A stretch of DNA of 64,000 nucleotides from an uncultured Candidatus Saccharibacteria bacterium (lineage in GTDB: Bacteria > Patescibacteriota > Minisyncoccia > GWC2-36-17 > CAYHJU01): positions 32,871 through 96,870 of the forward strand of contig CAYHJU010000001.1 in assembly GCA_964357175.1 (NCBI GenBank), read 5' to 3'. Each line of letters starts with the position of its first letter. Positions within the stretch are counted from its first letter, which is position 1. A program made the position numbers and the translations under genes. Of the stretch, positions 3,364 to 48,186 are shown one piece after another. The notes under the pieces are model-generated. The model did no database searches, had not been told where the DNA came from, and saw only the letters and a list, made by a program, of their open reading frames with translations.

Positions 3364-3465
3364 TCTTGACGCCTTACTGTTTTAATCTTAATTGTGTTAT
3401 AATTAGTATAGATATTAATGGCTAAATATAAGTACTAGATTCTAACTCCTAAATTCTAAATTATT

Positions 3466-3996: not shown

Positions 3997-4021
3997 AATA
4001 AATTTTCAATAATTTCAAATT

Positions 4022-4552: not shown

Positions 4553-4565
4553 TTCGAATTTATTT

Positions 4566-4865: not shown

Positions 4866-4874
4866 GTATAGTTT

Positions 4875-6617
4875 ATGACTAAAGAAAATAACTTTTTAAA
4901 TTATTTAACAAGCCAGGACAAATTAAGCGAGGCCAATTTAAAATCGGCCAGCGAAGAGGCGTCAAAAAACAGCCAGAATATAGAAGATGTTTTAATAGAA
5001 AAAAAATATTTGTCCGAACAGGAGCTTTATCAGCTTAAGGCTGATTTTTTAAATCTTGAATTAAGGTTTTTTTCAGAAACAGACACCATACCTTTTGACA
5101 TTTTGGCTTTAGTCTCACAAGAAGCGGCGGTCCAATACAAATTTATTCCACTCAATCGCACAGACGAGTATTTGCAGGCGGGAATGGTCCGCCCGGAAGA
5201 TTTTAAATCACAAGAAGCCCTGCACTTTATTGCGGCGCGGCTTGGCTTAAAAACAAAAGTGTTTTTAATAACGCCGCAGAGTTTCAATAACGCGCTGAAG
5301 CAATATCAAAGCTTGACGGGAGAAGTTAGCACTGCATTGGAAAAAATGACAGCCGAGCTTAAAGACGAAGAGATTGCGGATTTTCAGGAAAGTGGAAAAC
5401 AAAAAGACATTTCTTTGGTGCTTGAGGAGGCGCCCATCACAAAGGTTGTGGGGGTTGTGTTAAAGCACGCTGTTGAAGGTAGGGCCTCGGATATTCATAT
5501 TGAGCCGTTTCAGGACAGGATTCGTGTAAGATTTAGAGTAGACGGTGTTTTGTCCACCAGCCTTTTTTTACCCAAGGACGTGCTTTTGCAAATTGTGTCC
5601 CGTATAAAAATATTATCCGGACTGCAAATAGATGAAACTCGCAAGCCACAAGATGGAAGATTTCAAACTAAAATTAATGGCCGCGAGATAGATTTTCGTG
5701 TGTCTGTATTTCCCACTTCAAAAGGAGAAAAGGTGGCCATTCGCGTTTTGGATTCTTTAGTTGGAATTTCCACTTTTCTTGAGCTGGGTCTACAAGGCAG
5801 GAACGCCAAAAAAGTTCTTGAAGGCCTACAAAAACCTTTCGGATTGATAGTTAACACAGGTCCGACTGGTTCGGGCAAGTCTACCACTTTGTATGCCATG
5901 ATGCTCAAGCTCAACCAAGAGGGCGTTAATATAGTCAGCTTGGAAGATCCAGTAGAATATTTGCTTGAGGGCGTAAATCAATCCCAAGTAAGGCCAGAGC
6001 TGGGGTATGATTTTGCTTCAGGCCTTCGAAGTATTTTGCGCCAAGATCCGGACATTATAATGCTCGGAGAGGTGAGGGATAGAGAAACCGCGGGACTGGT
6101 CGTGCACGCCGCTTTGACGGGCCATATCGTTTTATCAACTCTTCACACCAACAATGCCATTGGCGCTATCCCGCGCCTTATAGACATGGGAGTGGAACCG
6201 TTTCTTATCCCGTCTTCGTTAACTATGGTGCTCGCTCAACGTTTAGTTAAAAAGCTGTGTGATTATTGTAAAGCTCCCATAAAGCCAATAGGCGAACTAA
6301 AGGATTTAGTAGAAGAGGCTATGTCGTCTTTTTCCGCGGAAGAATTAAAGGAGTTTGGTGTTGATGCTAAACAGATTTTTGAATCCAAGGGTTGCAAAAA
6401 ATGCGCAGGCAAAGGCACCAGGGGGCGCGTGGCGATTTATGAAATTTTAATGATGACGCCCCAGCTGGAAGAGATAATTTTGACAGAACCTTCCTCAGGT
6501 AAAATTGAGACAGAAGCTAAACGCCAGGGCATGGTTTCTATGAAGCACGATGGTATAATTAAGGCTCTGCAGGGGTTAGTTAGTTTGGAAGAAGTAATGA
6601 GGGTGGTTGAAGAATAA
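4875..6617 (+). CDS. pilB: type IV pilus assembly ATPase PilB (GspE family)
   Basis: Walker A GPTGSGKSTT, Asp box, His box, and a C-terminal tetracysteine motif CDYC...CKKC. Confidence 0.85.
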   Translation: MTKENNFLNYLTSQDKLSEANLKSASEEASKNSQNIEDVLIEKKYLSEQELYQLKADFLNLELRFFSETDTIPFDILALVSQEAAVQYKFIPLNRTDEYLQAGMVRPEDFKSQEALHFIAARLGLKTKVFLITPQSFNNALKQYQSLTGEVSTALEKMTAELKDEEIADFQESGKQKDISLVLEEAPITKVVGVVLKHAVEGRASDIHIEPFQDRIRVRFRVDGVLSTSLFLPKDVLLQIVSRIKILSGLQIDETRKPQDGRFQTKINGREIDFRVSVFPTSKGEKVAIRVLDSLVGISTFLELGLQGRNAKKVLEGLQKPFGLIVNTGPTGSGKSTTLYAMMLKLNQEGVNIVSLEDPVEYLLEGVNQSQVRPELGYDFASGLRSILRQDPDIIMLGEVRDRETAGLVVHAALTGHIVLSTLHTNNAIGAIPRLIDMGVEPFLIPSSLTMVLAQRLVKKLCDYCKAPIKPIGELKDLVEEAMSSFSAEELKEFGVDAKQIFESKGCKKCAGKGTRGRVAIYEILMMTPQLEEIILTEPSSGKIETEAKRQGMVSMKHDGIIKALQGLVSLEEVMRVVEE

Positions 6618-6638
6618 GATCTAATATTTAATTTTTGA

Positions 6639-6658
6639 CCTGCCTGCCGGCAGGCAGG
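6639..6658. repeat. perfect 20-nt palindrome CCTGCCTGCCGGCAGGCAGG, member of a dispersed family
   Basis: Exact palindrome 19 nt upstream of the receiver gene ATG; an identical copy at 18480-18499 and near-identical copies at 46740 and 48575. Confidence 0.7.
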
Positions 6659-6676
6659 GATTTAAACTTGAAATCT

Positions 6677-7060
6677 ATGGCAAAAGAAAAACAACACATT
6701 CTCTTGGTAGAGGACGATCCATTTTTGTCCGATATTTATTCTACGAAATTGGAAAGCGCCGGGTTTGGCTTGTCTGTGGCCTATGATGGGGAAGAGGTTT
6801 TTAAAAAAATTGAAGAAAAGACTCCTGAATTGATACTTTTGGATATAGTGTTGCCGAAAATGGACGGCTTTGAAGTTTTAAAAAAATTAAAATCTGACTT
6901 GAGGTTCAACAAAATTCCCGTGATCTTACTCACCAATTTGGGCCAGAAGGAAGATATAGATAAGGGCATGAGCTTGGGCGCGCAGGATTATTTAATAAAA
7001 GCCAATTTTATTCCATCGGAGATAGTAGAAAAAATTAAATGTTTTTTAAAAAGTAACTAA
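6677..7060 (+). CDS. single-domain response regulator (CheY-like receiver, PilH/PilG-like)
   Basis: ILLVEDD...D...K receiver-domain pattern. Start set at the internal ATG (MAKEK); located between pilB and pilT. Confidence 0.8.
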   Translation: MAKEKQHILLVEDDPFLSDIYSTKLESAGFGLSVAYDGEEVFKKIEEKTPELILLDIVLPKMDGFEVLKKLKSDLRFNKIPVILLTNLGQKEDIDKGMSLGAQDYLIKANFIPSEIVEKIKCFLKSN

Positions 7061-7068
7061 AAATATTT

Positions 7069-8139
7069 ATGAGCACCACAGAAGAAGAATTAAACGATTT
7101 GCTTTTTACAACGCTTAAGGAAAATGCGTCTGATTTACATTTGTCAGTCGGGCGTTATCCGACTTTGCGCGTTGATGGGTCTTTGTTGCCACTTACGCAA
7201 AAACCTATTTTAAATGGTGAAATGATAGAAAAAATAGCCACGGCCTTTATTACATCGGAACAAAAAGAGATGCTTTTTAGGGAAAGAGAGCTGGACTTGG
7301 CATATGACTTTAAGGGCAAGGCGCGTTTTCGTGTGAATATGTATTTTAATCAAGGCGCCATCGCGATTGCCTTACGCTTAATCACAGCCAAGGTACGCAC
7401 CATTGATGAGCTTGGTCTGCCCTCGATTTTACACAGATTTACCGATCTCAAGCAGGGATTTTTCCTCGTGGTGGGACCTTCGGGAAATGGCAAATCTACC
7501 ACTTTGGCGGCCATGGTGGACGAAATTAATCACAAAAGAGCGGAGCACATTATAACCATAGAAGATCCCGTGGAGTATATTTTTGAACAGGATTTATCGA
7601 TAATCAATCAAAGAGAGGTTGGGCGGGACACGATAAGTTTTCACGGCGCGCTAAGAGCTTCTTTGCGAGAAGATCCCAATGTCATCATGGTGGGTGAAAT
7701 GCGCGACGCGGAAACGATGTCTACTGCCATTACAGCGGCAGAAACCGGACATTTGGTGCTTTCTACGCTCCACACAAACAACGCTTCTCAAACCATAGAC
7801 CGTATCATAGACAGCTTTCCGGCCGAACAACAGGACCAGGTGAGAGCGCAACTTGCCGCCACTTTGGTGGGTGCAATATCGGAAAGATTGTTGCCGCGTA
7901 TTCGCGGGGGCAGGATTCCTGCCTATGAGATTATGGTGGCAAATTCTGCGGTAAAATCATTGATTCGTGAAAATAAGGTTCATCAACTGGATTTAGTCAT
8001 TGAAACCGGCGCCGAAGAAGGGATGATTTCTTTAAATAGGTCTTTAGCAAATTTAGTAAAAAGTGGAGAGGTGACTCTTTCTGCCGCAGAGCTTTATTCT
8101 TTAAATAGAAAAGAATTTCTTGCGCTCGTAGGAAAATAA
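7069..8139 (+). CDS. pilT: twitching motility ATPase PilT
   Basis: GPSGNGKSTTLAAM Walker A; PilT-type His box and length (~356 aa). Confidence 0.85.
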   Translation: MSTTEEELNDLLFTTLKENASDLHLSVGRYPTLRVDGSLLPLTQKPILNGEMIEKIATAFITSEQKEMLFRERELDLAYDFKGKARFRVNMYFNQGAIAIALRLITAKVRTIDELGLPSILHRFTDLKQGFFLVVGPSGNGKSTTLAAMVDEINHKRAEHIITIEDPVEYIFEQDLSIINQREVGRDTISFHGALRASLREDPNVIMVGEMRDAETMSTAITAAETGHLVLSTLHTNNASQTIDRIIDSFPAEQQDQVRAQLAATLVGAISERLLPRIRGGRIPAYEIMVANSAVKSLIRENKVHQLDLVIETGAEEGMISLNRSLANLVKSGEVTLSAAELYSLNRKEFLALVGK

Positions 8140-8141
8140 TT

Positions 8142-8283
8142 CACCCTGTTAAATAATTGAAAATTTTATATAAAATTTGAAATTAAAATTTGTCACTCAA
8201 ACATTTTTAAAACATTTAAGAAAATAACTAAAAATATAAAATACTACCCAGTTTAGATAGAAGCAAATTTTATTTAACAGGGT
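8142..8283. promoter_or_regulatory. inverted-repeat element CACCCTGTTAAATAA ... TTATTTAACAGGG flanking a ~110 nt AT-rich spacer upstream of pilC
   Basis: Arms at 8142-8156 and 8269-8283. The right arm plus AAGCAAATT is repeated at 10151-10174 upstream of the second pilin gene. Confidence 0.4.
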
Positions 8284-8291
8284 AAAAATCT

Positions 8292-9497
8292 ATGAGATTT
8301 GCATACGAAGCTAAAACTCAAGAAGGGCAGTCACAAAAAGGCGCTATCGACGCCGGGAGCGTTGAGGCGGCAGTAGATATTTTACAGCAAAGAAGACTCA
8401 TAGTGATAAAAGTTTCCGCTACTTCGGAGACGCCCTTTAATTTGTCATTGAAAGATGTTATAGGCAGAGTTAGCAAAAAAGACATAGCAATTTTTTCTCG
8501 TCAGGTGGCAACACTATTTGAAGCAAAAGTTCCCATTGTGGAATCATTAAAAACTTTATCTGAACAAGAAGACAAAAAGAAATTAAGAGACGTGATCGAT
8601 AGTTTGGCCTATGAGGTGGAAAGCGGCACACCGCTTTCGAAGGCTCTGTTGAAACATCCAGATGTTTTTTCCAATTTTTTCATTCAAGTGGTTCGTTCTG
8701 GTGAGGCCTCAGGAAAGCTGGGCGATGTGTTCAAATATTTGGCGGATTATTTAGAAAGAGATGTAGCGGTGCGCCAGAAAATCAAGGGCGCTCTTATTTA
8801 TCCCGCTTTCATATTAGTTGCGATGGCGGTGGTAATGGTTATTCTAATGACTTATGTTGTGCCTCAAATCAGCGCTATTTTAAAGGATCTGGGACAGACC
8901 CTGCCTTTAATAACGCTGGTGGTTGTGAGTATTAGTAATTTCGTCGCGTCTTTTTGGTGGCTAATTGCCATAATCTTTGGGACTCTTTTGATTTTTGGGT
9001 GGCGCTATATCCACACCAAAGATGGTAAGGCGGTCTGGGATAAATTAATTCTGGATTTTCCTATTATCGGAAATTTATTGCAGAAGACTTATATGATGCG
9101 TTTTGCCGAAACCCTGTCTTTGCTATTGGAAGGCGGCTTGCCTCTGCCGCAGTCATTGGAAATAACTTCAGATATGATAGACAATGAAGTTTATAGAGCT
9201 GTTTTAAATGATTCCGTAAAAGCCGTTCGTGAGGGATCGCAAATGAGCACTGTTTTGCGCCAAAGCGCGTATGTGCCGAAACTCGTTTCGCAAATGGTGA
9301 TGGTCGGAGAAAACACTGGTCGCATAGAGGATATGTTGCGCCATGTCTCCAAATTTTTTGCGAGTGAGGTAGATTCGGCAATTTCAGGATTGACCGCCAC
9401 CATAGAACCGATCTTGATAGTTGTCATAGGCGCTGGAGTGGGCGTTATAGTCGTTAGTATCATTATGCCTATTTATAATATTGCCGGATCGTTTTAA
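8292..9497 (+). CDS. pilC: type IV pilus platform protein PilC (GspF family)
   Basis: Two GspF repeats and three TM segments; ~400 aa. Confidence 0.85.
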   Translation: MRFAYEAKTQEGQSQKGAIDAGSVEAAVDILQQRRLIVIKVSATSETPFNLSLKDVIGRVSKKDIAIFSRQVATLFEAKVPIVESLKTLSEQEDKKKLRDVIDSLAYEVESGTPLSKALLKHPDVFSNFFIQVVRSGEASGKLGDVFKYLADYLERDVAVRQKIKGALIYPAFILVAMAVVMVILMTYVVPQISAILKDLGQTLPLITLVVVSISNFVASFWWLIAIIFGTLLIFGWRYIHTKDGKAVWDKLILDFPIIGNLLQKTYMMRFAETLSLLLEGGLPLPQSLEITSDMIDNEVYRAVLNDSVKAVREGSQMSTVLRQSAYVPKLVSQMVMVGENTGRIEDMLRHVSKFFASEVDSAISGLTATIEPILIVVIGAGVGVIVVSIIMPIYNIAGSF

Positions 9498-9531
9498 ATT
9501 AAAAATTTAAAGTGAAAAACTAAAAATATTT

Positions 9532-10044
9532 ATGATGAACAAAAAAAATAAAGGCTTTACCCTGCTCGAGCTTTTGGTGGTTATCGTTATCATTGGGCTT
9601 GTCTCTACGATAACCCTCACCTTTATTTATATGTCTAAAAATCGCGCTAAAAAATCGCGCATTGTATCCAATTTAGACCAAGTCAGAAAAACGGCCGAAC
9701 TTTTTTATAACGGTAATAATTATAGCTATATGGGCTTGAGTGATGCGCCGGACATATTGATTCTTAGGGAGGATGTGGTTAAGCAGGGTGGTCAGCTAAA
9801 TATTTATCCTAGCGTTGATTCCTATGTGGCTTATAGCGCGTATCCAGGCGCGGAAAACAACCATTATTGGTGTACAGATAGTCAAGGAAACTCAAAGGAT
9901 GTGACGGGCTATCCTTCGGGTAGCTGTAATAGTACGGGGGCCTGCCCTCCGGGCCAGACGAATCCATATGGGCAGTATCGATTTAGATCCGGCTGTGTGC
10001 GCGTTTCAGGATGTGGCACCAGCACATGCTCTTTGCCTTACTAA
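9532..10044 (+). CDS. type IV pilin-like protein (prepilin, class III signal peptide)
   Basis: MMNKKNKG|FTLLELLVVIVIIGL prepilin cleavage/methylation motif; Cys-rich C-terminus. Confidence 0.75.
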   Translation: MMNKKNKGFTLLELLVVIVIIGLVSTITLTFIYMSKNRAKKSRIVSNLDQVRKTAELFYNGNNYSYMGLSDAPDILILREDVVKQGGQLNIYPSVDSYVAYSAYPGAENNHYWCTDSQGNSKDVTGYPSGSCNSTGACPPGQTNPYGQYRFRSGCVRVSGCGTSTCSLPY

Positions 10045-10056
10045 ATGAAATGTATT

Positions 10057-10084
10057 TTGATGATTTTATAAACTGGTGTATAAT
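10057..10084 (+). promoter_or_regulatory. sigma70-like promoter (TTGATG-16-TATAAT) for the second pilin gene
   Basis: TTGATG at 10057-62 and TATAAT at 10079-84 with TG immediately upstream. It leaves a ~190 nt leader containing the inverted repeat at 10119-10174. Confidence 0.4.
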
Positions 10085-10118
10085 TAGAGCAAGGAAATAA
10101 TTTACGATTTTTAATTTT

Positions 10119-10174
10119 TACCCTGTTAAATAGAACATAGTTCTAATTTGCGAAGCAAATTATTTAACAGGGTG
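10119..10174. promoter_or_regulatory. inverted-repeat/hairpin element TACCCTGTTAAATA ... TATTTAACAGGGTG in the pilin leader
   Basis: Outer arms at 10119-10132 and 10161-10174, with inner palindromes (AGAACATAGTTCT, AATTTGCGAAGCAAATT). Same motif as at 8142-8283. Confidence 0.4.
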
Positions 10175-10272
10175 GAAATCCAATAAATCCTAAAAGGTCG
10201 GTCGCTTATTCGCTTTAAAAACGAATAAGAAGAAATGAAAATTATTTATAACTCTAATTTAAACTAAACAAT

Positions 10273-10680
10273 ATGAAAAAAAATAAAGGTTTTACTTTAA
10301 TCGAGCTTTTAGTCGTTATCGCCATTATCGGTTTATTATCAACGATTGTTTTGGTTTCTTTAAACAGCGCCAGAAACAAAGCCAAAGATGTCAGAATTAA
10401 AGCCGATTTAGCTCAGGTTCGTTCACTTGCTGAATTGAATGCTGACACAAGCAATACATATGTTTTGGCAGTACCTTCTTCTTACTCCACTCAATATGCA
10501 ACTTTAACAGCTGATATCGATGCGCAGGTTCCTCAAACAGTAGTTTACAATGCCACTGCGACCGCATATGGTGCTTCAGCCCAATTAACAGGAACTGGCG
10601 CTTTCTGGTGCGTTGATAGCACAGGCGTTTCTAAGGCCGAGGGCGCAACTTTGGGTGTAGGGGTCACAGTTTGTCCGTAA
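10273..10680 (+). CDS. pilA: type IV pilin (probable major pilin)
   Basis: MKKNKG|FTLIELLVVIAIIGLL prepilin motif; 135 aa; followed by a strong terminator. Confidence 0.8.
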   Translation: MKKNKGFTLIELLVVIAIIGLLSTIVLVSLNSARNKAKDVRIKADLAQVRSLAELNADTSNTYVLAVPSSYSTQYATLTADIDAQVPQTVVYNATATAYGASAQLTGTGAFWCVDSTGVSKAEGATLGVGVTVCP

Positions 10681-10704
10681 TCATTTCTTGATGATGTTTG
10701 TATT

Positions 10705-10748
10705 AATTCGGCGCCCCGCAAAGCGGGGCGCCGAATTGTTTTATTTCA
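10705..10748 (+). terminator. rho-independent terminator
   Basis: ATTCGGCGCCCCGCaaaGCGGGGCGCCGAAT 14-bp GC-rich stem followed by TTGTTTTATTT. Confidence 0.75.
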
Positions 10749-10926
10749 TCACCACACCCAAAAATCATCCAACCTATTTTTAAGATTTTTTATTCTACTT
10801 TATTTTTAACGACCGTCAGTAAAAAGGTAGAATAAATTCATTCTGTAAAATACGAACGATCGTCAGCAAAATACAGAATAAAATAAGGCGTTCGAGTTTT
10901 TGTTAATTTTATCCTATAATTAAACT

Positions 10927-11733
10927 ATGCTTATCATAGAATCAATTTTAATATTTTTATTCGGACTTTGTATCGGCAGTTTCTTAAATGTCGTTATTTT
11001 TCGTGTATTGTCAGGAGAAAGCCTGCGTGGTCGCTCGCACTGCCAAAAGTGTCTCAAGACCTTAAGATGGTATGAGCTTTTTCCGCTTGCAAGTTTTGTC
11101 TGGCAAAAAGGCAGATGCCGTTCGTGTCAAGAAAAAATTTCCTGGCAATATCCTTTGGCAGAATTGATTACAGCAGTATTATTTTTGTTAATCTTCCAAC
11201 ATTTTTATGGCAACTGGGCCGAGATGATTTTATGGATTGTGGTCGCATCAGCTTTTGTGGTTTTATTTTTCACGGATTTGAAAGAATATATTTTGCCGGA
11301 TGTTATTGTGATTCCTCTGATTGCCGTTTTATTTTTATACCGCACATTTCAATCTTTTTATCTGGGGAGTTTTGATTTTTTTGCAAATTTTGTCATCGCG
11401 TCCTTTCTAATCGCCTTGCCATTTTTTCTTTTTTATGCGATATCAGGCGGGAGAATGATTCGGACAGGAATATTTAAAATAGAATGGATGGGCATGGGGG
11501 ATTCAAAGCTAATATTTTTGGCAGGTCTTCTTTTGGGTTGGCCCAAAATTTTGATAGCGGTAATGTTCGCGGTGTTTTTAGGGTCTTTGTGGGGAATTTT
11601 GTTGATGTTTTTAAAAAAGTTTACGCTCAAAAGCGCCATGCCTTTTGGACCTTTTATAATTTTAGGCGCGTTTCTTTCTCTGTATTTTGGTGATATAATT
11701 TACGAGTGGTATATCAATTGGCTATTTTTTTAA
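10927..11733 (+). CDS. pilD: prepilin peptidase PilD (A24 family)
   Basis: N-terminal CxxC...CxxC zinc motif, 8 TM segments, conserved GMGDSKL Asp box. Confidence 0.85.
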   Translation: MLIIESILIFLFGLCIGSFLNVVIFRVLSGESLRGRSHCQKCLKTLRWYELFPLASFVWQKGRCRSCQEKISWQYPLAELITAVLFLLIFQHFYGNWAEMILWIVVASAFVVLFFTDLKEYILPDVIVIPLIAVLFLYRTFQSFYLGSFDFFANFVIASFLIALPFFLFYAISGGRMIRTGIFKIEWMGMGDSKLIFLAGLLLGWPKILIAVMFAVFLGSLWGILLMFLKKFTLKSAMPFGPFIILGAFLSLYFGDIIYEWYINWLFF

Positions 11734-18522: not shown

Positions 18523-18768
18523 ATGATTCAATATTACATTTATGCTATAAAGAGTTACAAAGACGGAAGATTATATGTAGGAATAAGTAGAAATCCGGAG
18601 AGTAGATTAATCGAGCACAATTCTGGAATGACAAAATCTACAAAACCTTTCCGACCGTGGAAAATTGTGTTTAAAAGATTTATTGGTGACAGGAAGTCAG
18701 CTAGGATTGAGGAAAAGAAATTAAAGTCAGGATATGGTAAAGAGTTCTTAAAAAAATTGACTAGATAA
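18523..18768 (+). CDS. stand-alone GIY-YIG nuclease domain protein (81 aa)
   Basis: YYIYAIKS...GRLYVGIS...R...EHN motif layout of the GIY-YIG fold. Stop is 10 nt before the intact tRNA-Lys. Confidence 0.75.
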   Translation: MIQYYIYAIKSYKDGRLYVGISRNPESRLIEHNSGMTKSTKPFRPWKIVFKRFIGDRKSARIEEKKLKSGYGKEFLKKLTR

Positions 18769-18778: not shown

Positions 18779-18854
18779 GCGCCCGTAGCTCAGTTGGTAG
18801 AGCAGCTCCCTTTTAAGGAGATTGTCGTAGGTTCGATTCCTACCGGGCGCACCA
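18779..18854 (+). tRNA. tRNA-Lys (anticodon UUU), CCA encoded
   Basis: Cloverleaf folded by hand: acceptor GCGCCCG/CGGGCGC, D-arm GCTCAGTTGGTAGAGC, anticodon loop CTTTTAA, T-arm GTAGGTTCGATTCCTAC, ACCA. Confidence 0.85.
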
Positions 18855-18974: not shown

Positions 18975-19028
18975 GTGTCTACACTTAAATCAGGTTCTTT
19001 AATAATATAAAACTTTCAATTTTCAGCG

Positions 19029-19085
19029 CATGAGGCGAGCGTTTAGCAGATTAAATATTTTATTCTCTTAAACGCTCGTCTCATG
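19029..19085 (+). promoter_or_regulatory. 17-bp inverted repeat (leader hairpin) at the boundary of the GC-rich segment
   Basis: CATGAGGCGAGCGTTTA ... TAAACGCTCGTCTCATG with one mismatch. A second hairpin CCCGAGCGTCTCGGG+TATTTT at ~19125-19145 looks like a terminator/attenuator. Confidence 0.45.
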
Positions 19086-19165
19086 TGAGGCTGAGTCCCA
19101 CCTGTCGGTAGGCAGGCGCCAGCCCGAGCGTCTCGGGTATTTTCAAACTGTACAGGAGGTGTGCG

Positions 19166-19945
19166 ATGAGTAAAGACGTTGTAAGCCGTAGCCTGTCGGT
19201 GCATAAAGAGCACGAAGTGCTCCTGAAGCTCGAGGCCGCAGGTCTCACCGACGAACTCGCCCAGAAAGTCATCGGCTCCAAGGACAACGATCTTGCCACG
19301 AAGGTGGTGAGGTTGATTCAGAACGGTGGCTTTGAGGCCACCTCCTCCCAGAAGCGTGCCCGTGAGATCATGGGCAATAATTTCTTCGGCGTCGAAGAGA
19401 ATTTTAAACACTTCGGCATATACTACGCTATGGGTCCAGATGCCCGAAAGGCTCTTTCCGAAGTTCCCTTCACCGAAGAAGTTCTACAGGCGCACAAGGA
19501 CACTCACGTCCTCGTCGCAACCTTCCCACTTTCCATTCTCGACATTCGTAGCAAAGCTCCACGTAGCCTCTTCTACCGTCACGAAGACGCCTGGTGCAAC
19601 AGCCAGCGCTTTGCCAAGGACAAGGGAGAAGTCGCCTGGCATCTGGTCAGAAAAACCCCAGTTCAGAACTCCACCAACAGAACCTGGTCGGATCAGCAGT
19701 CTCTCCTTTCCCAGGATGAAGAAACTCCCACGGCCCGTGTCCTGACCTACACCATCATCGGTCACTTCCTGGCAACTGGAGAACGCCTGTTCGAACACAT
19801 CTATGTCCGTACATCGTCGGTGGTTTCGGACGACGACGGGGGCAGCGTTGGCTACTTCGGCTCCGGTGGTCTGCGCGTCGACAGCCGCTGGGATGACGGT
19901 CGCAGCGGCGATCTGGGTGTCTCGTCCTCCCGGAAGTCCAACTGA
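19166..19945 (+). CDS. hypothetical protein encoded in an anomalously GC-rich (~55 % by eye) segment
   Basis: 259-aa ORF preceded by a strong SD (ACAGGAGG, 7 nt before ATG); GC-rich third codon positions; no family recognised. Confidence 0.5.
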   Translation: MSKDVVSRSLSVHKEHEVLLKLEAAGLTDELAQKVIGSKDNDLATKVVRLIQNGGFEATSSQKRAREIMGNNFFGVEENFKHFGIYYAMGPDARKALSEVPFTEEVLQAHKDTHVLVATFPLSILDIRSKAPRSLFYRHEDAWCNSQRFAKDKGEVAWHLVRKTPVQNSTNRTWSDQQSLLSQDEETPTARVLTYTIIGHFLATGERLFEHIYVRTSSVVSDDDGGSVGYFGSGGLRVDSRWDDGRSGDLGVSSSRKSN

Positions 19946-19996
19946 ACATTGATCCGCCAGCTGGCGGATTGAAAATTTGATTCTTTTGAATCATTG

Positions 19997-20035
19997 AGCC
20001 CTCGGCGTAAAAACGCCGAGGGCTTTTCTTTTTAT
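19997..20035 (+). terminator. strong rho-independent terminator
   Basis: AGCCCTCGGCGtaaaaaCGCCGAGGGCT perfect 11-bp GC stem followed by TTTCTTTTTAT. Confidence 0.75.
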
Positions 20036-20381
20036 AAATATAGTAGGTATAATTTATACATCCCGCTAATGCAGGCGCGACTACGGTTTCGTCTCGCGGG
20101 ATATATAATTTTGCCGCATTATCGCTTATTACGCACAAAAACTAAACAGCGCATATTTAAAAAATTTAAAAATCGTGTGGGAGAATATAAGTCAGGTAAA
20201 ATTAGCAGGGATAAACTTGAACAATCGTTACAGTCCTATCTGGGCACTCTGTCTCACGCTGATGCTTATGACCTAAGCGAAGATTTGAAAAATCAGGTTT
20301 GGTTTTCAGGTTAAACGATTTTAATCTGTTTGGTCGCCATCGTGATTTTACTTTTGAGACAAGCCAGCTCATGTTGGAAAA

Positions 20382-20410
20382 TTGACACCTTTGTTGATTC
20401 GCGATAAAAT
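20382..20410 (+). promoter_or_regulatory. sigma70-like promoter of the thr operon (TTGACA-N17-TAAAAT)
   Basis: TTGACA at 20382-87 and TAAAAT at 20405-10; the leader-peptide ORF starts 10 nt downstream. Confidence 0.5.
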
Positions 20411-20419: not shown

Positions 20420-20482
20420 ATGACAAATAAACAAATTTTTACCACCACTACTACAACGACTACAACCACTTTTAGTGGCTGA
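20420..20482 (+). CDS. thrL: thr operon leader peptide (Thr-codon rich), MTNKQIFTTTTTTTTTTFSG
   Basis: 20-codon ORF containing 11 Thr codons, 10 consecutive (ACC ACC ACT ACT ACA ACG ACT ACA ACC ACT). It sits between the promoter and a terminator hairpin, immediately upstream of the aspartokinase-homoserine dehydrogenase gene. Confidence 0.75.
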   Translation: MTNKQIFTTTTTTTTTTFSG

Positions 20483-20521
20483 GGTTTGTTGTTGAGATAT
20501 TTAAATATTATAAACACAACA

Positions 20522-20548
20522 GACCTTAGCCAAGAGGTCAATTTTTTT
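20522..20548 (+). terminator. attenuator terminator of the thr leader
   Basis: GACCTTagccAAGAGGTC hairpin followed by AATTTTTTT. The upstream GGTTTGTTG...CAACAGACC pairing can act as the alternative antiterminator and overlaps the terminator stem. Confidence 0.6.
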
Positions 20549-20561: not shown

Positions 20562-23054
20562 ATGAAAATTCTAAAATTCGGCGGCTCATCTGTCGCTAAT
20601 GCGGAAAATATCAATAAAGTTATTCAAATTGTAATGCAATCACCCAAAAGGCGAAACGATATCGTCGTTGTGTCGGCTCTTGGCGGTGTTACGGACGATC
20701 TTATAAGGCTTGCCACTCTTGCCTCAAAAGGAGAAAGCGATTACGGATTACTATTTAAAAATCTTTGCAAGAAACACAACGAGGTCATAAAAAAATTAAT
20801 TAAGACTAAGAATCAAAAACAGGCGCTTGAAGAAGCGAAGAAAAAATATGACGAATTAGAAAAAATATTACAAGGTATTTTTCTTATAAAAGAACTTTCA
20901 TTGCGTTCACTGGATACGGTCATGAGTTTTGGTGAGCAATTATCAGCGCAGATCATTGGCGAAGCGATAAATAGCCGAGGTGTTGCGTGTAAATTTGTAG
21001 ATGCCCGAAATCTTATCAAAACGGATGACAATTTTGGTTCGGCGAATGTAGATGCCTTAAAAACACATAAGCTCATTTCAAATTATTTTAAGAAAAGCTC
21101 CATGCTTTCCATAATGGGCGGATTTATCGCCTCAAATAGCTCGGGAATAGTTACCACGCTTGGTCGGGGCGGTTCTGACTACAGCGCGTCTTTGATAGGG
21201 GCGGCGCTCAACGCCGCTGTGATCGAAATTTGGACTGATGTTGATGGTGTAATGACAGCAGATCCCCGTAAGGTAGAAAAGGCGTTTCCTCTTGCAGAAA
21301 TATCCTATGAGGAAGCAGGAGAGCTTGCGCATTTTGGCGCAAAAGTCATACATCCAAAAACTATGAAGCCGGCGCGATTAAAAAACATTCCTATTCTTAT
21401 TAAAAACACATTCAATCCGCAGGCTATAGGCACTAAAATAGGCAAGGGGAAGATCGGGCAGGCCTTCGCCTCGCCGATCCGCATCACGCCGAAGGTTTCG
21501 GTAGGGCGAGAGTGGCTTCGGCCATGCGAGCAGGATTTTCTCATCAAAGGAATATCTTCATTGAGCAATGTTTCTTTATTGCGTCTGCAATCTAATAATG
21601 GCAAAAACATAGGTGAAATTACGGCACAATTATTTGACGCATTGTGTAGATTTGATATTGAGGTTTTGCTCACTACCCAGTCATCGCACGAACAAGCACT
21701 TTCCATAGCGTTAAGCAGTAAGGAGGCTCAAAGGGCAAAAAATATTATTGAGCGGGCGTTTGAATTGGAGTTGCAAACACGACAAATGCTGCCTGTTTCT
21801 ATAAAAGAAAATCTTTCAATAGTCGCCATTGTGGGTAAACAAATGAAGGGTGTGCCAGGCATTTCGGGAAGACTATTTAACACTTTGGGAAATAATAAAA
21901 TTAATATAGTTGCTATCGCTCAAGGGTCGTCTGAATTAAACGTGTCGGCTGTAATTGGCGCAGAAGATGAAACAAGAGCGCTTCAAGTGATTCACGAGGC
22001 ATTTTTTGGCGCGGCTGATGAGACTGTCAGTCTTTTTCTTGTGGGGACAGGATTGATTGGATCAACATTGCTTACGCAAATAAAAAAACAAGAATCACAA
22101 ATTCGTCTGCGTGGTTTGGCAAACAGCCGATTTATGTTATTTGATGGGCAGGGCATTTCATTAGAAAGTTGGGAAAAACTTTTGCCGCAAGGAAAATCAA
22201 TGAACGTACAGAATTTTGTTGCCCAAATGACTGAATTGAATTTACCAAGAAGCGTGTTTGTGGATTGTACTGCCAGCGATGACATTGCTTCCTTGTATGA
22301 AAAAATTATCAGTGCCGGTATTGCCATTGTTACTCCAAACAAAAAGGCAAACTCCGGACCGTTTATGAGGTATCAAAGATTAAGAAATTTAACTAAAAAA
22401 AATCACACACCATTTCTTTATCAAACAAATGTAGGCGCTGGACTCCCGATTATTCACAGCATACAAAATCTTATTTCAAGTGGAGACGAAATACTCAAAA
22501 TAGAAGGCGTGCTTTCCGGAACATTGAGTTACATATTCAATACATTTTCAAAGAGCGATAAATTATTTAGTCAAATTGTTTCTGATGCGCAAAACAAGGG
22601 ATATACCGAGCCAGATCCTCGAGATGATTTGGGCGGCATGGATGTTGCTCGTAAAATTCTTATTCTGGCACGAGAAATTGGCCTAAAAATGGAAATGGGG
22701 CAAGTGCGCATTGAACAATTGCTGTCAAAGGAGTGTCTAGGGGCTAATTCAGTTGATAAATTTTTTACTGCGCTTAAAAAACTCGATAGTAGTTTTGAAA
22801 AAAGAAAAAGACAAGCGCAAAAAAATAACAAAACATTACGCTACATAGCATCACTACAAAAAGGCGGGGCGAGAATTTCTTTGCAAGAAATTGGTCAAGA
22901 TCATCCATTTTTCCATCTTGAGGGCAATGACAACATTGTTTCCATAACAACAAAACGATATAGCGCAACTCCGCTAGTTATTAAAGGGCCTGGAGCCGGA
23001 GCCGAAGTAACTGCCGGTGGCGTATTAGCTGGCGTTCTTAGTATATTTAACTAA
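20562..23054 (+). CDS. thrA: bifunctional aspartokinase / homoserine dehydrogenase
   Basis: N-terminal amino-acid kinase domain (KFGGSSV), ACT domains, C-terminal homoserine dehydrogenase; 830 aa. Confidence 0.9.
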   Translation: MKILKFGGSSVANAENINKVIQIVMQSPKRRNDIVVVSALGGVTDDLIRLATLASKGESDYGLLFKNLCKKHNEVIKKLIKTKNQKQALEEAKKKYDELEKILQGIFLIKELSLRSLDTVMSFGEQLSAQIIGEAINSRGVACKFVDARNLIKTDDNFGSANVDALKTHKLISNYFKKSSMLSIMGGFIASNSSGIVTTLGRGGSDYSASLIGAALNAAVIEIWTDVDGVMTADPRKVEKAFPLAEISYEEAGELAHFGAKVIHPKTMKPARLKNIPILIKNTFNPQAIGTKIGKGKIGQAFASPIRITPKVSVGREWLRPCEQDFLIKGISSLSNVSLLRLQSNNGKNIGEITAQLFDALCRFDIEVLLTTQSSHEQALSIALSSKEAQRAKNIIERAFELELQTRQMLPVSIKENLSIVAIVGKQMKGVPGISGRLFNTLGNNKINIVAIAQGSSELNVSAVIGAEDETRALQVIHEAFFGAADETVSLFLVGTGLIGSTLLTQIKKQESQIRLRGLANSRFMLFDGQGISLESWEKLLPQGKSMNVQNFVAQMTELNLPRSVFVDCTASDDIASLYEKIISAGIAIVTPNKKANSGPFMRYQRLRNLTKKNHTPFLYQTNVGAGLPIIHSIQNLISSGDEILKIEGVLSGTLSYIFNTFSKSDKLFSQIVSDAQNKGYTEPDPRDDLGGMDVARKILILAREIGLKMEMGQVRIEQLLSKECLGANSVDKFFTALKKLDSSFEKRKRQAQKNNKTLRYIASLQKGGARISLQEIGQDHPFFHLEGNDNIVSITTKRYSATPLVIKGPGAGAEVTAGGVLAGVLSIFN

Positions 23055-23060: not shown

Positions 23061-24152
23061 ATGGCAAAAATAAGCAATAAAATTCCAGTCGGCATACTTG
23101 GCGCAACCGGTATGGTTGGACAGCGTTTTATTTCGTTGCTGAAAAATCATCCCTACTTTGAAGTGGCGTGTCTTGCCGCTTCAGAGAGATCAGCGGGTAA
23201 AATATATAAAGAAGCAGTTTTGGGGCGATGGGCGCAAAAAGAATCTATACCACGCAACGTGAGCATGATGATGGTATATTCTATTGAAAATGATATAGAC
23301 ACCATTGCGCAAAAAGCCCGTTTTGTATTTTCAGCAATAGACGCAGAAAAAGAATTTATTAAAAAAATAGAAGAGGCATATGCCTCACGCGGTCTCCCTG
23401 TCGTTTCTAACAACTCGGCTCACAGATGGACAGAAGATGTGCCGATGATTATGCCTGAAATAAATCCCCAGCATCTCAATATCATTAACGCGCAAAGAAA
23501 AAAACGTGGCTGGACGACAGGATTTATTATCACCAAACCAAATTGTTCAATTCAATCTTATGTCCCACTACTTCATGCGTGGAAAAACTTCAAGCCCCAG
23601 AAAGTAATCGTCTCCACGTATCAGGCAATTTCTGGTGCGGGCAAAACATTTAAAACTTGGCCGGAAATGATTGACAATGTTATTCCATATATTGGTGGGG
23701 AAGAAGAAAAGTCAGAAAAAGAACCATCAAAAATTTGGGCAAATATTAAAGAGGGTAAATTTGAAATGGCAAACACGCCACAAATTTCAGCAAATTGCAT
23801 ACGGGTTCCCGTTTCGGACGGACACATGGCGGCAATCAATATACAATTTGCGAAAAAGGCAGACAAGAAACAACTCATTGAAGCGCTAAAAAAATTTAAA
23901 AATCCTTTGGACGTCTTAAATTTACCTTCTGCTCCGAAACCGTTTTTAACTTATTTTGAGGAAAACAATCGGCCACAAACACGTCTTGATAGAGATTTAC
24001 ACGGTGGTATGGGAATCAGTGTTGGCCGTTTAAGAGAGGATTCCGTTTTGAGCTGGAAGTGTGTTGCTCTATCACATAACACTCTACGGGGCGCCGCAGG
24101 TGGTAGCGTGCTCAATGCAGAACTGTTGGTAAAGCTGGGTTATATAAAGTAG
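23061..24152 (+). CDS. asd: aspartate-semialdehyde dehydrogenase
   Basis: GILGATGMVGQR Rossmann motif, active-site Cys context (NCS), C-terminal dimerisation domain. Confidence 0.9.
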   Translation: MAKISNKIPVGILGATGMVGQRFISLLKNHPYFEVACLAASERSAGKIYKEAVLGRWAQKESIPRNVSMMMVYSIENDIDTIAQKARFVFSAIDAEKEFIKKIEEAYASRGLPVVSNNSAHRWTEDVPMIMPEINPQHLNIINAQRKKRGWTTGFIITKPNCSIQSYVPLLHAWKNFKPQKVIVSTYQAISGAGKTFKTWPEMIDNVIPYIGGEEEKSEKEPSKIWANIKEGKFEMANTPQISANCIRVPVSDGHMAAINIQFAKKADKKQLIEALKKFKNPLDVLNLPSAPKPFLTYFEENNRPQTRLDRDLHGGMGISVGRLREDSVLSWKCVALSHNTLRGAAGGSVLNAELLVKLGYIK

Positions 24153-24157: not shown

Positions 24158-24829
24158 ATGAAATTATCACAAAAACAATTTGATCAATTGTTGCAAAAAA
24201 ATAAATTGGTACTGAGCTTAATCGGCATGTCTAATATCGGCAAAACCCATTGGTCAAAAAAACTTACCAAGATTAATTTTAAGCACATCAATTGTGATGA
24301 TCTTGTTGAAGCAAAACTTGCCCTTGAGCTTAAAGCGTGCGGGCATTCTGGCATTAAGGACGTGTCTTTGTGGATGGGCCAGCCTTACGACAAAAGATTC
24401 CTCGTTTGCCAACAAAAATATTTGAAATTTGAAAAAGAGGTAATGAAACAAATATTTATGCAGATTGAGAGTAAAAAAGGACAAAATATTGTTATTGATA
24501 CGACCGGTAGTTTTGTGCACGCTGGCACTAGCGCGTGTTCTCAATTAAAAAAACATACGCTGGTGATCTATATTGAGGCGAGGGATTCTGTGAAGGAGAA
24601 AATGTTTGAACGATATATCAAAAAACCAAAGCCCGTTGTATTTGGAGATGTTTTTGCTCCAAAAAAGGGAGAAACAAATAAGCGGGCTCTTAAAAGATGT
24701 TATTTGAAATTGCTTGATCTGCGCAGTAATCTATATGATCAATGCGCGGATATTAGTATCTCTTGTGAAATTATCAGCCAAGATATGGACGCCAAACAAT
24801 TTATTTCACTAATAAGAAAATCTTTATGA
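24158..24829 (+). CDS. P-loop kinase of the shikimate-kinase/NMP-kinase-like fold (function unknown; occupies the thrB position)
   Basis: Walker A GMSNIGKT followed by a CDDLVE Asp motif, ~220 aa. Stop overlaps the thrC start (ATGA), so it is translationally coupled within thrA-asd-X-thrC. Confidence 0.55.
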   Translation: MKLSQKQFDQLLQKNKLVLSLIGMSNIGKTHWSKKLTKINFKHINCDDLVEAKLALELKACGHSGIKDVSLWMGQPYDKRFLVCQQKYLKFEKEVMKQIFMQIESKKGQNIVIDTTGSFVHAGTSACSQLKKHTLVIYIEARDSVKEKMFERYIKKPKPVVFGDVFAPKKGETNKRALKRCYLKLLDLRSNLYDQCADISISCEIISQDMDAKQFISLIRKSL

Positions 24830-26124
24830 AATTTTATAGCACGAAACACAGTGGCCCAGAAGTTGAGCTGAAAGAGGCTGTAATGAGCGGCCTTGCTCCG
24901 GATGGGGGCCTATATATGCCGAGCGCTATACCAAAGCTTGAGAGTGATTTTTTTGAGCAGGCAGACAAAATGTCTTTTATGGACATCGCTTTTGAGGTGG
25001 GCGAGCGTTTTTTTGCTCCGGATGTGCCGGAGGGCATTCTGCGCCCTATCATCAATGAGTCGTTTAATTTCGAAGTGCCTCTTGTGGAATTGGATAAAAA
25101 TCTTCACGTGCTGGAATTATTTCATGGCCCTACACTTGCGTTTAAAGATTTTGGCGCTCGTTTTATGGCGCGCTTGCTCGGTTATTTTGCGCGACAATCC
25201 CAAAAGAAAATAACGATACTTGTTGCGACATCAGGAGATACAGGAGGCGCGGTCGCGCATGGATTTTTTAATGTAGACGGCATTCAGGTGGTTATTTTGT
25301 ATCCCAGTAAAAAAGTTAGCGCTTTACAAGAAAAACAATTAACAACTATGGGCGGAAACATCAGGGCGCTTGAAGTTCAGGGAAATTTTGATGATTGTCA
25401 ACAAATGGCGAAACAGGCCTTTCTTGACGAAGATCTAAAACAAGCCATGATGCTGGTCTCGGCAAACTCTATTAACATCGCGCGCTTGTTGCCTCAATCA
25501 TTCTATTTTGTTTATCTTTGCGCAAAATTAAACAAACTGGGCAAACCAATCGTAGCTTCTGTTCCTAGTGGCAATTTTGGCAATCTGAGCGCCGGACTTA
25601 TTGCCAAAAAGATGGGCGCGCCGATTCATAAATTTGTCGCCTCAACAAATCGAAATGACATAGTGCCACAATATTTAAAAACAGGCCATTTTGAGGCCAG
25701 ATCGTCTGTTTCCACCATTTCTAATGCCATGGATGTCGGTAATCCAAGCAATTTTGCAAGGATGCTGGAATTATACGACTCTAATGTTGAGAAAATGAAG
25801 CATGACGTATACGGTGTAAGTTTTTCGGACACACAGACAAAAGAAGCGATGGCAGAAGTGTTCAAGAAGTATAATTATATAATGGATCCTCACGGGGCAG
25901 TCGCGTATTTGGGCCTTTGCGATTATCTAAAAAGCTCCGATGAATCTTCGGGAGTGTTTTTGGAAACCGCTCATCCCGCAAAATTTTCTGATATTGTAGA
26001 GCAAGCCATTGGCGTGGCACCACCCATGCTAGACAGGCTCAAGGCATATCTTAGTCGTGAAAAACAATCAACTTTGATAGAGAATAAATTTTCTGACCTA
26101 AAAGAATTTCTTCTGAATCAATAA
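24826..26124 (+). CDS. thrC: threonine synthase
   Basis: PLP-lysine motif HGPTLAFKDFG; fold-type II PLP enzyme; 432 aa. Confidence 0.9.
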   Translation: MKFYSTKHSGPEVELKEAVMSGLAPDGGLYMPSAIPKLESDFFEQADKMSFMDIAFEVGERFFAPDVPEGILRPIINESFNFEVPLVELDKNLHVLELFHGPTLAFKDFGARFMARLLGYFARQSQKKITILVATSGDTGGAVAHGFFNVDGIQVVILYPSKKVSALQEKQLTTMGGNIRALEVQGNFDDCQQMAKQAFLDEDLKQAMMLVSANSINIARLLPQSFYFVYLCAKLNKLGKPIVASVPSGNFGNLSAGLIAKKMGAPIHKFVASTNRNDIVPQYLKTGHFEARSSVSTISNAMDVGNPSNFARMLELYDSNVEKMKHDVYGVSFSDTQTKEAMAEVFKKYNYIMDPHGAVAYLGLCDYLKSSDESSGVFLETAHPAKFSDIVEQAIGVAPPMLDRLKAYLSREKQSTLIENKFSDLKEFLLNQ

Positions 26125-48052: not shown

Positions 48053-48186
48053 CTCCTCACCCGATATTTTGCACGTTCGTTCCAAACAGGCAAAATATCT
48101 CCTTCGGAGCCGGGGTTTTTTAAAAATCAAAGCAGTTTGATTTTTAAAAATACCCTTCAATTCCCTCAAGTTGTTAAGGGAATTTC

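What the first reader, a model, noticed from the sequence alone, without database searches (positions are those of the whole stretch)
24158..24829. A shikimate-kinase-like P-loop kinase occupies the thrB slot of the thr operon: candidate non-orthologous homoserine kinase
The operon is thrL-thrA-asd-X-thrC with 3-6 nt gaps, and X's stop overlaps the thrC start. X has a Walker A (GMSNIGKT) and a CDDLVE Asp motif typical of small-molecule P-loop kinases (shikimate/gluconate kinase fold). No GHMP-type ThrB is visible. Known homoserine kinases are GHMP (ThrB), HAD (ThrH) or PGM-like (ThrB2); a P-loop version has not, to my knowledge, been described. Operon context under Thr attenuation makes a role in the homoserine-to-O-phosphohomoserine step the most economical hypothesis.
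Basis: inference. Interest (0 to 1): 0.8.

Follow-up and report, generated by a model that had tools for sequence, protein, structure and literature searches.

The report
Shikimate-kinase-fold homoserine kinase candidate
A small ATP-binding kinase that looks like shikimate kinase sits where homoserine kinase should be in a threonine operon of a groundwater Patescibacteria genome. It almost certainly does that job, but a shikimate-kinase-like homoserine kinase was already shown in Desulfovibrio in 2018, so this is a new, unannotated branch of a known idea.

Summary

The functional reading, ATP-dependent homoserine kinase replacing ThrB, is strongly supported:
- 41 of 78 usable loci (79 fetched from species-representative genomes) have thrC directly next to an X homologue, in both gene orders.
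- ThrA and X are fused in both orders (ThrA-X and X-ThrA).
- X keeps the acceptor-hydroxyl Asp and one carboxylate-binding Arg of shikimate kinase, but has lost Arg58 and the GGG loop.

The novelty claim is wrong. DvMF_0971, a shikimate-kinase relative, complemented E. coli thrB- (PMC5764234), and NCBIfam has a model for it (NF040667). That model is the best hit for all 74 family members tested, but far below its cutoff (38 vs 197 bits for X).

X therefore belongs to a distinct, longer family of about 421 clusters at 50% identity. Sources name its members 'shikimate kinase' or 'hypothetical'. It occurs in Patescibacteria, Peregrinibacteria, Hyphomonadaceae, and a red alga and a glaucophyte.

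Not tested: activity, and whether a second thrB exists elsewhere in the genome.

The parts
20382..20410 (+). sigma-70-like promoter candidate (TTGACA-17-TAAAAT) upstream of the leader
   Evidence: Best-scoring site of the region, 11 of 12 matches. This is a consensus match only.
20420..20482 (+). thrL leader peptide ORF, MTNKQIF-TTTTTTTTTT-FSG*
   Evidence: Read from the sequence. Thr-run leader ORFs also lie upstream of thrA in L013, L014, L016, L046, L057 and L077.
20476..20532 (+). predicted antiterminator hairpin; it overlaps the leader stop codon and the 5' arm of the terminator
   Evidence: Centroid structure of 20415-20561, MFE -29.6 kcal/mol, z = -4.82. The attenuation logic is inferred.
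20522..20548 (+). intrinsic-terminator-like hairpin (GACCTTAGCCAAGAGGTC) followed by AATTTTTTTA, just before thrA
   Evidence: Terminator scan.
20562..23054 (+). thrA, bifunctional aspartate kinase / homoserine dehydrogenase (830 aa)
   Evidence: NF006959 954.5 bits, cutoff 726. Pfam AA_kinase, ACT and Homoserine_dh.
23061..24152 (+). asd, aspartate-semialdehyde dehydrogenase (363 aa)
   Evidence: NF006416 470 bits (cutoff 232) and TIGR00978 354 bits (cutoff 301.2).
24158..24829 (+). X: 223-aa P-loop kinase with a shikimate-kinase fold, candidate ATP:L-homoserine O-phosphotransferase
24826..26124 (+). thrC, threonine synthase (432 aa); its start overlaps the X stop codon (ATGA)
   Evidence: TIGR00260 297.7 bits, cutoff 167.1. 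Sequence read.

Best explanation
X is an ATP-dependent L-homoserine kinase (EC 2.7.1.39) built on the shikimate-kinase / NMP-kinase P-loop fold. It makes O-phospho-L-homoserine for the threonine synthase encoded immediately downstream, and so replaces the GHMP-type ThrB.

The operon then encodes all five steps from aspartate to threonine: AK and HDH in ThrA, then Asd, X and ThrC. It is switched by a Thr-codon leader/attenuator.

Proposed mechanism (inferred from alignment to solved shikimate kinases):
- The Walker A residues Lys29/Thr30 hold the ATP phosphates and Mg2+.
- Invariant Asp47 (equivalent to shikimate kinase Asp34) positions and activates the acceptor hydroxyl.
- Lys158 in the lid (PKP motif) replaces lid Arg117.
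- Invariant Arg189 (equivalent to Arg136) binds the substrate carboxylate.
- The shikimate-specific Arg58 and the GGG loop are replaced (Leu89; Asp114-Thr-Thr-Gly-Ser). A family-specific insertion carrying Trp72, Gly74 and Pro76 remodels the pocket for a small amino acid. Asp114 is a candidate partner for the alpha-amino group.

Shown here: the gene, operon, fold, conserved residues, gene neighbourhood and fusions. Inferred: the substrate, the residue roles and the attenuation mechanism.
For: 1. Pathway logic. The operon has thrL-thrA-asd-X-thrC with 5-6 nt gaps and an ATGA overlap. Homoserine kinase is the only missing step and X is the only unassigned gene.

2. Neighbourhood. 79 loci were fetched from species-representative genomes. 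41 of the 78 in which the X homologue was located among the gene calls have a thrC-like gene directly adjacent, 22 downstream and 19 upstream. 46 of the 79 have a thr-pathway gene within 300 bp. All 10 tested neighbours pass the thrC equivalog cutoff. The linkage holds in several deep clades of the family tree and in cultured Hyphomonadaceae, where thrC and X are 3 nt apart.

3. Fusions in both orders. ThrA(AK-ACT-HDH)-X: L029 4190..7300, 1036 aa, and P0123, 1031 aa. X-ThrA: P0193, 1055 aa.

5. Closest curated family. NF040667, the Desulfovibrio homoserine kinase, was hit by 74 of 74 family members (best E 1.3e-15). At most 33 hit any one shikimate-kinase model. The match covers model positions 3-45 and 52-159 of 163. 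That clade's function was shown by thrB- complementation (PMC5764234).

6. Active site. Asp47, Arg189, Glu92 and the Walker A residues are invariant. The position of shikimate-binding Arg58 is not conserved, and the GGG loop is replaced by TGS.

7. Regulation. Thr-rich leader ORFs precede thrA in six other X-containing loci.
Against: - No activity was measured.
- The rest of the genome was not available, so a second thrB (GHMP, APH-type, ThrH or PGM-like) cannot be excluded.
- X scores only 38 bits on NF040667 (cutoff 197), so function cannot be transferred by family membership.
- A 62%-identical homologue (L012) lies inside a dapB-dapA-aminotransferase-X-dapF operon rather than next to thrC.
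- A few close homologues (L015, L021, L028) have no thr gene within the fetched flanks.
- One clade (Proteobacteria and Bdellovibrionota MAGs) is never thr-linked and sits between rnhA and a GT9 glycosyltransferase.
- Residue roles come from a sequence alignment to shikimate kinases, not from a docked or solved complex.
Confidence: 0.8

Rival explanations
1. X is a true shikimate kinase (AroK/AroL type), as several pipelines name its homologues, and its place in the thr operon is incidental.
For: The shikimate-kinase fold is the best structural match. There is a weak Pfam SKI hit, E 7e-4. JGI, NCBI and UniRef name homologues 'shikimate kinase'.
Against: The SKI score is below Pfam's gathering threshold (20.2 vs 22.1). 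The shikimate-carboxylate Arg58 position is not conserved and the GGG loop is replaced by TGS. No aro gene appears among the recurrent neighbours of 78 loci, whereas thrC is adjacent in 41. Fusions are to ThrA, not to AroB or other aro enzymes. All 74 members score better on the homoserine-kinase model than on shikimate-kinase models.
Confidence: 0.03
2. X is a kinase of the aspartate-family network with a different substrate or role. Examples: it phosphorylates another small hydroxy or amino acid such as threonine or serine, it regulates ThrA or ThrC, or it acts more broadly on the aspartate-semialdehyde branch point.
For: A close homologue sits inside a dap (lysine/diaminopimelate) operon (L012). 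One clade has no thr linkage. Substrate identity is inferred only.
Against: The only enzymatic gap between the HDH domain and ThrC is homoserine kinase. Adjacency is specifically to thrC, in both orders. Fusions to AK-HDH place X right after homoserine formation. The same 14 residues are invariant across all clades, including the unlinked one, which argues for one shared activity. The nearest characterised relative is a homoserine kinase.
Confidence: 0.12
3. X phosphorylates homoserine but uses a phosphoryl donor other than ATP, or needs a partner such as ThrA to be active. In that case it might not complement on its own.
For: The ThrA-X fusions suggest physical coupling. The lid Arg is replaced by Lys, and the Mg-site Asp32 equivalent is variable (Asn45 in X).
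Against: The canonical Walker A and the NMP-kinase core are intact. Most family members are stand-alone genes. DvMF_0971 works alone in E. coli.
Confidence: 0.05

Closest known systems
DvMF_0971, the shikimate-kinase-related homoserine kinase of Desulfovibrio vulgaris Miyazaki F (Price et al. 2018, PMC5764234; NCBIfam NF040667 'hom_kin_desulfo')
   Same: P-loop shikimate-kinase-like fold used for the homoserine kinase step. It is the best-scoring curated family for X and for all 74 relatives tested. The similarity spans nearly the whole 163-position model.
   Different: X scores 38 bits against a cutoff of 197. X is 223 aa against a 163-position model: it has an N-terminal helix, an insertion of about 25 residues (roughly residues 60-85, with Trp72/Gly74/Pro76) and a longer lid. 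The taxa differ (Patescibacteria and others rather than Desulfovibrio). X's function is not experimentally shown. I could not obtain a DvMF_0971 sequence, so no direct alignment or tree was made.
Shikimate kinase AroK/AroL (PF01202; e.g. PDB 2iyq, 1kag)
   Different: Only 13-23% identity. Arg58 is lost, the GGG loop becomes TGS preceded by invariant Asp114, and lid Arg117 becomes Lys158. X has two insertions, a thr rather than aro genomic context, and scores below Pfam's threshold.
GHMP-type homoserine kinase ThrB in the E. coli thrLABC operon
   Same: Same slot between the homoserine-forming enzyme and thrC. Same kind of Thr-codon leader/attenuator control. Presumed same reaction.
   Different: Unrelated fold. 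X has no GHMP motif or Pfam GHMP hit. The operon here also includes asd.
ThrB2 / BT2402 (TIGR02535, phosphoglycerate-mutase-like candidate homoserine kinase of Bacteroidetes and Firmicutes; PMC7311316, PMC9026213)
   Same: A non-orthologous replacement predicted from thr-operon context and from complementary occurrence with thrB.
   Different: Different fold and probably a different phosphoryl chemistry. BT2402 did not complement E. coli thrB- (PMC7311316).

Membership tests
Desulfovibrio-type shikimate-kinase-like homoserine kinase (NCBIfam NF040667) | Whole-protein score at or above the curated cutoff (197 bits) | tested here: not met
   X scores 38 bits, E 1.4e-9. The best of 74 relatives has E 1.3e-15, and the highest score among those scanned singly was 49.9 bits.
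Desulfovibrio-type shikimate-kinase-like homoserine kinase (NCBIfam NF040667) | Closer to this model than to shikimate-kinase models | tested here: met
   It is the top NCBIfam hit for X and was matched by 74 of 74 relatives. At most 33 of 74 match any one shikimate-kinase model. Margins are modest, for example 21 vs 18 bits on the C-terminal half.
Desulfovibrio-type shikimate-kinase-like homoserine kinase (NCBIfam NF040667) | Homoserine kinase activity shown by thrB- complementation or a threonine-rescued mutant phenotype | not testable with these tools
   Shown for DvMF_0971 only (PMC5764234).
Shikimate kinase (Pfam PF01202; NCBIfam AroK/AroL equivalogs) | Profile score above the gathering or curated cutoff | tested here: not met
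   PF01202 20.2 bits against 22.1. PRK13947 23 bits against 204. AroK 19 bits against 195.
Shikimate kinase (Pfam PF01202; NCBIfam AroK/AroL equivalogs) | Shikimate-binding residues Arg58 and the Gly79-Gly80-Gly81 loop (M. tuberculosis numbering; residue roles from my own knowledge of SK structures) | tested here: not met
   In the profile alignment to 1kag and 3trf, Arg58 aligns to a non-conserved position (Leu89 in X) and GGG aligns to Thr116-Gly117-Ser118 (conservation).
Shikimate kinase (Pfam PF01202; NCBIfam AroK/AroL equivalogs) | NMP-kinase-like fold with Walker A, catalytic Asp34 and Arg136 | tested here: met
GHMP-type homoserine kinase ThrB | GHMP kinase domain and the PxGSGLGSSA-type motif | tested here: not met
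   X has only P-loop kinase Pfam hits. No such motif occurs in the six-frame translation of the window. In the 79 related loci there was a single poor match, 8 kb away in L057.
Thr-leader transcription attenuator (E. coli thrL type) | Short leader ORF rich in Thr codons, followed by alternative hairpins and an intrinsic terminator, upstream of thrA | tested here: met
   A leader with 10 Thr codons, a hairpin with z = -4.8 that overlaps the terminator arm, a terminator plus T-run, and leader ORFs conserved in 6 relatives. There is no Rfam Thr_leader hit. Function is not shown.

The most novel reading that the evidence does not exclude
The X family is a separate, widespread and so far unrecognised class of homoserine kinase, not just an outlying Desulfovibrio-type enzyme. 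On this reading it arose by an independent, or very ancient, remodelling of the shikimate-kinase substrate domain (loss of Arg58 and GGG, gain of Asp114 and the Trp72/Gly74/Pro76 insertion). It would fill the 'missing ThrB' gap in Patescibacteria, Peregrinibacteria and Hyphomonadaceae, and possibly in the plastids of red algae and glaucophytes. It would also mean that many 'shikimate kinase' annotations and threonine-auxotrophy predictions for these groups are wrong.
Probability: 0.35. Interest if true: 0.65.

Novelty: new variant of a known kind. Interest (0 to 1): 0.5.

Why it matters
Homoserine kinase is one of the most frequently 'missing' steps in automated amino-acid pathway reconstruction. 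GapMind scored it low-confidence in 20% of 148 prototrophs (PMC7311316).

Patescibacteria are routinely described as amino-acid auxotrophs. This window instead shows a complete, attenuator-controlled aspartate-to-threonine operon, provided X is the kinase.

Recognising this family would have three practical effects:
- It would correct 'shikimate kinase', 'AAA ATPase' and 'hypothetical' annotations in about 421 sequence clusters at 50% identity.
- It would remove false threonine gaps and false hints of a shikimate pathway.
- It would give a second, structurally distinct example of how the shikimate-kinase fold is retuned for a small amino acid.

Cultured carriers (Litorimonas haliclonae, Algimonas arctica) make the hypothesis directly testable.

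Tried and rejected
- I could not obtain a DvMF_0971-type sequence. So there is no direct alignment or tree against the Desulfovibrio clade, only NCBIfam scores.
- Fold search against afdb50 was unavailable.
It was run with A1 instead.
A possible APH-type thrB in that genome stays unchecked.
- The GHMP motif regex on the window and on all loci is only a crude test.
- Literature searches for a description of this family in Patescibacteria or the Candidate Phyla Radiation found nothing. A hit on 'alternative homoserine kinase' (PMC9765024) concerns BT2402, not this family.
- Rfam found no Thr_leader or other family in the leader region.
- I considered whether the thr-unlinked clade and the dap-operon copy point to another function. 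I judged this less likely because the same catalytic and pocket residues are invariant across all clades.

Full report
**What is there**

Window 24158..24829 (+) is a 223-aa ORF, called X here. It lies in a compact, same-strand gene row:
- thrA, 20562..23054. It is a bifunctional aspartate kinase/homoserine dehydrogenase (NF006959, 954 bits, cutoff 726).
- asd, 23061..24152, after a 6-nt gap (NF006416, 470 bits, and TIGR00978, 354 bits; both above cutoff).
- X, after a 5-nt gap.
- thrC, 24826..26124. Its ATG overlaps the X stop codon as ATGA (TIGR00260, 297.7 bits, cutoff 167.1).

Upstream lies a classic attenuator layout:
- The best promoter-like site of the region, TTGACA-17-TAAAAT, at 20382..20410.
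- A 20-codon leader ORF at 20420..20482 encoding MTNKQIF-T10-FSG.
- A stable hairpin (z = -4.8) that overlaps both the leader stop codon and the 5' arm of the terminator.
- A terminator-like stem at 20522..20539 followed by a T-run, 13 nt before thrA.

Thr- or Thr/Ile-rich leader ORFs precede thrA in six other loci that carry an X homologue.

The window comes from a Hainich groundwater (well H41) metagenome and belongs to a Patescibacteria genome.

**X is a real, conserved P-loop kinase with a shikimate-kinase fold**

- 129 homologues were found at E <= 1e-3, mostly 223 aa long.
- An exhaustive profile search found 421 clusters (50% identity) at E <= 1e-30 and 1302 at E <= 1e-3.
- The AlphaFold model is confident (pLDDT 92.5, pTM 0.89).

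By sequence, X is below threshold for every curated family. Pfam SKI scores 20.2 against 22.1.

**Genomic context points to the step between homoserine dehydrogenase and threonine synthase**

I fetched 79 loci from one-genome-per-species GTDB representatives.
- In 41 of the 78 loci where the X homologue could be placed among the gene calls, a thrC-like gene is the immediate neighbour. It lies downstream in 22 cases and upstream in 19, and is sometimes divergently transcribed.
- 46 of the 79 have a thr-pathway gene within 300 bp, and 48 have one within 10 kb.
- Ten of ten tested neighbours pass the thrC equivalog cutoff.
- No aro gene is among the recurrent neighbours.

The linkage holds in several deep branches of a neighbour-joining tree. 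It also holds across taxa:
- many Patescibacteria classes;
- Peregrinibacteria/Peribacteria and Gracilibacteria;
- a Nitromaritima MAG;
- archaeon-labelled MAGs;
- Hyphomonadaceae, including the cultured Litorimonas haliclonae, where thrC and X are 3 nt apart.

X is also fused to ThrA in both orders. AK-ACT-HDH-X occurs in L029 (4190..7300, 1036 aa) and P0123 (1031 aa). X-AK-ACT-HDH occurs in P0193 (1055 aa).

With thrA, asd and thrC assigned, homoserine kinase is the only missing step of the aspartate-to-threonine route, and X is the only unassigned gene.

**Active-site reading (inferred)**

A profile of 74 family members was aligned to solved shikimate kinases, and conservation was taken. 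Residue roles in shikimate kinase come from my own knowledge of the M. tuberculosis and E. coli structures.

| X residue or motif | Shikimate kinase equivalent | Status in the X family |
|---|---|---|
| G23-x4-G28-K29-T30 | Walker A | G28 and K29 invariant; G23 conserved |
| Asp47 | Asp34, binds the hydroxyl that is phosphorylated | invariant |
| Glu92 | Glu61 | invariant |
| Lys158 in the P-K-P motif | lid Arg117 | nearly invariant |
| Arg189 and Tyr193 | Arg136 region, binds the carboxylate | invariant |
| Leu89 | Arg58 | not conserved |
| Thr116-Gly117-Ser118, preceded by Asp114 | Gly79-Gly80-Gly81 loop | Asp114, Gly117, Ser118 invariant |
| insertion at about residues 60-85 with Trp72, Gly74, Pro76 | none | Gly74, Pro76 invariant; Trp72 nearly invariant |

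So X keeps the phosphotransfer machinery and one carboxylate anchor, while the rest of the acceptor pocket is rebuilt. That fits a small hydroxy-amino acid such as homoserine. Asp114 is a plausible partner for the alpha-amino group.

**Comparison with what is known**

- Price et al. 2018 (PMC5764234) found that DvMF_0971 of Desulfovibrio vulgaris Miyazaki F is required for growth without threonine and rescues an E. coli thrB- strain. It had been annotated as shikimate kinase and is 27% identical to E. coli shikimate kinase II.
- NCBIfam holds a model for that clade, NF040667 ('homoserine kinase'). It is the top NCBIfam hit of X (E 1.4e-9) and was matched by 74 of 74 family members (best E 1.3e-15). 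At most 33 match any one shikimate-kinase model.
- The similarity covers model positions 3-45 and 52-159 of 163.

However, all scores tested (X 38 bits; highest seen 49.9 bits) are far below the curated cutoff of 197. X is also about 60 residues longer than the model. X is therefore not a member of that curated family. It belongs to a distinct family that is probably related.

No source names any member 'homoserine kinase'. The names given are 'shikimate kinase', 'AAA family ATPase' and 'hypothetical protein'. I found no paper in the searchable library that describes this family.

**Caveats**

- No activity data exist for this family.
- Only 64 kb of the genome was visible. It holds no GHMP motif, and ten mid-sized proteins were unrelated to any ThrB type. 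A thrB elsewhere cannot be excluded.
- A 62%-identical homologue lies inside a dapB-dapA-aminotransferase-X-dapF operon (L012). This is still aspartate-family metabolism, but it is not the threonine branch.
- A few close homologues have no thr gene within the flanks fetched.
- One clade, from Proteobacteria and Bdellovibrionota MAGs, is never thr-linked. It shows rnhA / X / GT9-glycosyltransferase synteny. The same 14 residues are invariant in that clade, so I think one shared activity is more likely than a different one.

**Verdict**

The functional hypothesis, a non-orthologous homoserine kinase, is well supported by independent lines of genomic evidence (confidence about 0.8).

The claimed categorical novelty is not supported, because the idea was demonstrated for Desulfovibrio in 2018. 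What is new is a separate, widespread and mis- or un-annotated family with a remodelled substrate domain. It completes an attenuator-controlled threonine operon in Patescibacteria.

I rate it a new variant of a known kind, with interest 0.5.

Noticed in passing
P0181, P0250, P0198, P0221, P0243, P0230 (proteins): The X family has eukaryotic members: Galdieria sulphuraria Gasu_38570 (a red alga; UniRef name 'Shikimate kinase') and Cyanophora paradoxa (a glaucophyte). Both carry N-terminal extensions of roughly 65-90 residues that look like targeting peptides. The other listed proteins carry similar extensions (up to about 125 residues) but come from unnamed metagenome sources. The family may serve in algal plastids.
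   Followed up: partly
L029 4190..7300; L022 (ORF runs off the contig start to 2775); P0123; P0193: Trifunctional fusion proteins. AK-ACT-HDH-X is about 1030 aa (L029, labelled Peribacteria, and P0123; L022 is a truncated copy). The reverse order, X-AK-ACT-HDH, is 1055 aa (P0193).
   Followed up: yes
L012 7091..11474: In a Patescibacteria MAG from the same aquifer (H43-bin168_1), the 62%-identical X homologue sits inside dapB-dapA-aminotransferase-X-dapF, a diaminopimelate/lysine operon. No thr gene lies within 10 kb.
   Followed up: partly
L042, L048, L051-L056, L059, L072, L073, L010: A clade of shorter (about 200-240 aa) X homologues in alphaproteobacterial and Bdellovibrionales MAGs (plus L010, an unnamed metagenome contig) has conserved synteny: RNase H (opposite strand), X, then a GT9 heptosyltransferase-family gene. 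It has no thr genes nearby. The catalytic residues are the same as in the thr-linked clades.
   Followed up: partly
window 19000..20050: A GC-rich island (50-59% GC against about 37% around it) lies shortly downstream of a tRNA (18779..18851) and a small ORF (18523..18768). It contains a 259-aa ORF (19166..19945) with no Pfam hit and many overlapping ORFs on both strands. It may be foreign DNA inserted next to the tRNA, just upstream of the thr operon.
   Followed up: partly
L013, L014, L016, L046, L057, L077 (upstream of thrA): Thr-run or Thr/Ile-run leader peptide ORFs are conserved upstream of thrA in several Patescibacteria-type thr operons. This suggests ribosome-mediated attenuation is common in these reduced genomes. 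Rfam's Thr_leader model does not detect the leader in this window; the other loci were not scanned.
   Followed up: partly
L026 4400..5065: The X homologue of Patescibacteria MAG H52-bin091_1 has one in-frame TGA, at a position where relatives have Lys, Arg or Glu. It could be a sequencing error, a pseudogene or recoding.
   Followed up: no
L001 8904..9995 compared with window 23061..24152: In one public assembly of the same population (ERZ1292633), asd is called as two genes of 153 and 161 aa. In the window and in two other assemblies it is intact (363 aa). This is probably an assembly frameshift.
   Followed up: no
L005 20647..20672 (GCA_016187125.1): An APH-family (PF01636) gene of 331 aa lies about 10 kb from the X homologue in this Saccharibacteria-labelled MAG. 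The APH family includes the alternative, protein-kinase-like ThrB, so it should be checked. The sequence could not be fetched.
   Followed up: no
window 48186..48565 (-); 2269..11733 (+): A tmRNA gene (136 bits), and a type IV pilus gene cluster (PilM, a T2SSE-family ATPase, a T2SSF-family PilC-like protein, and prepilin peptidase). Both are ordinary for Patescibacteria.
   Followed up: no
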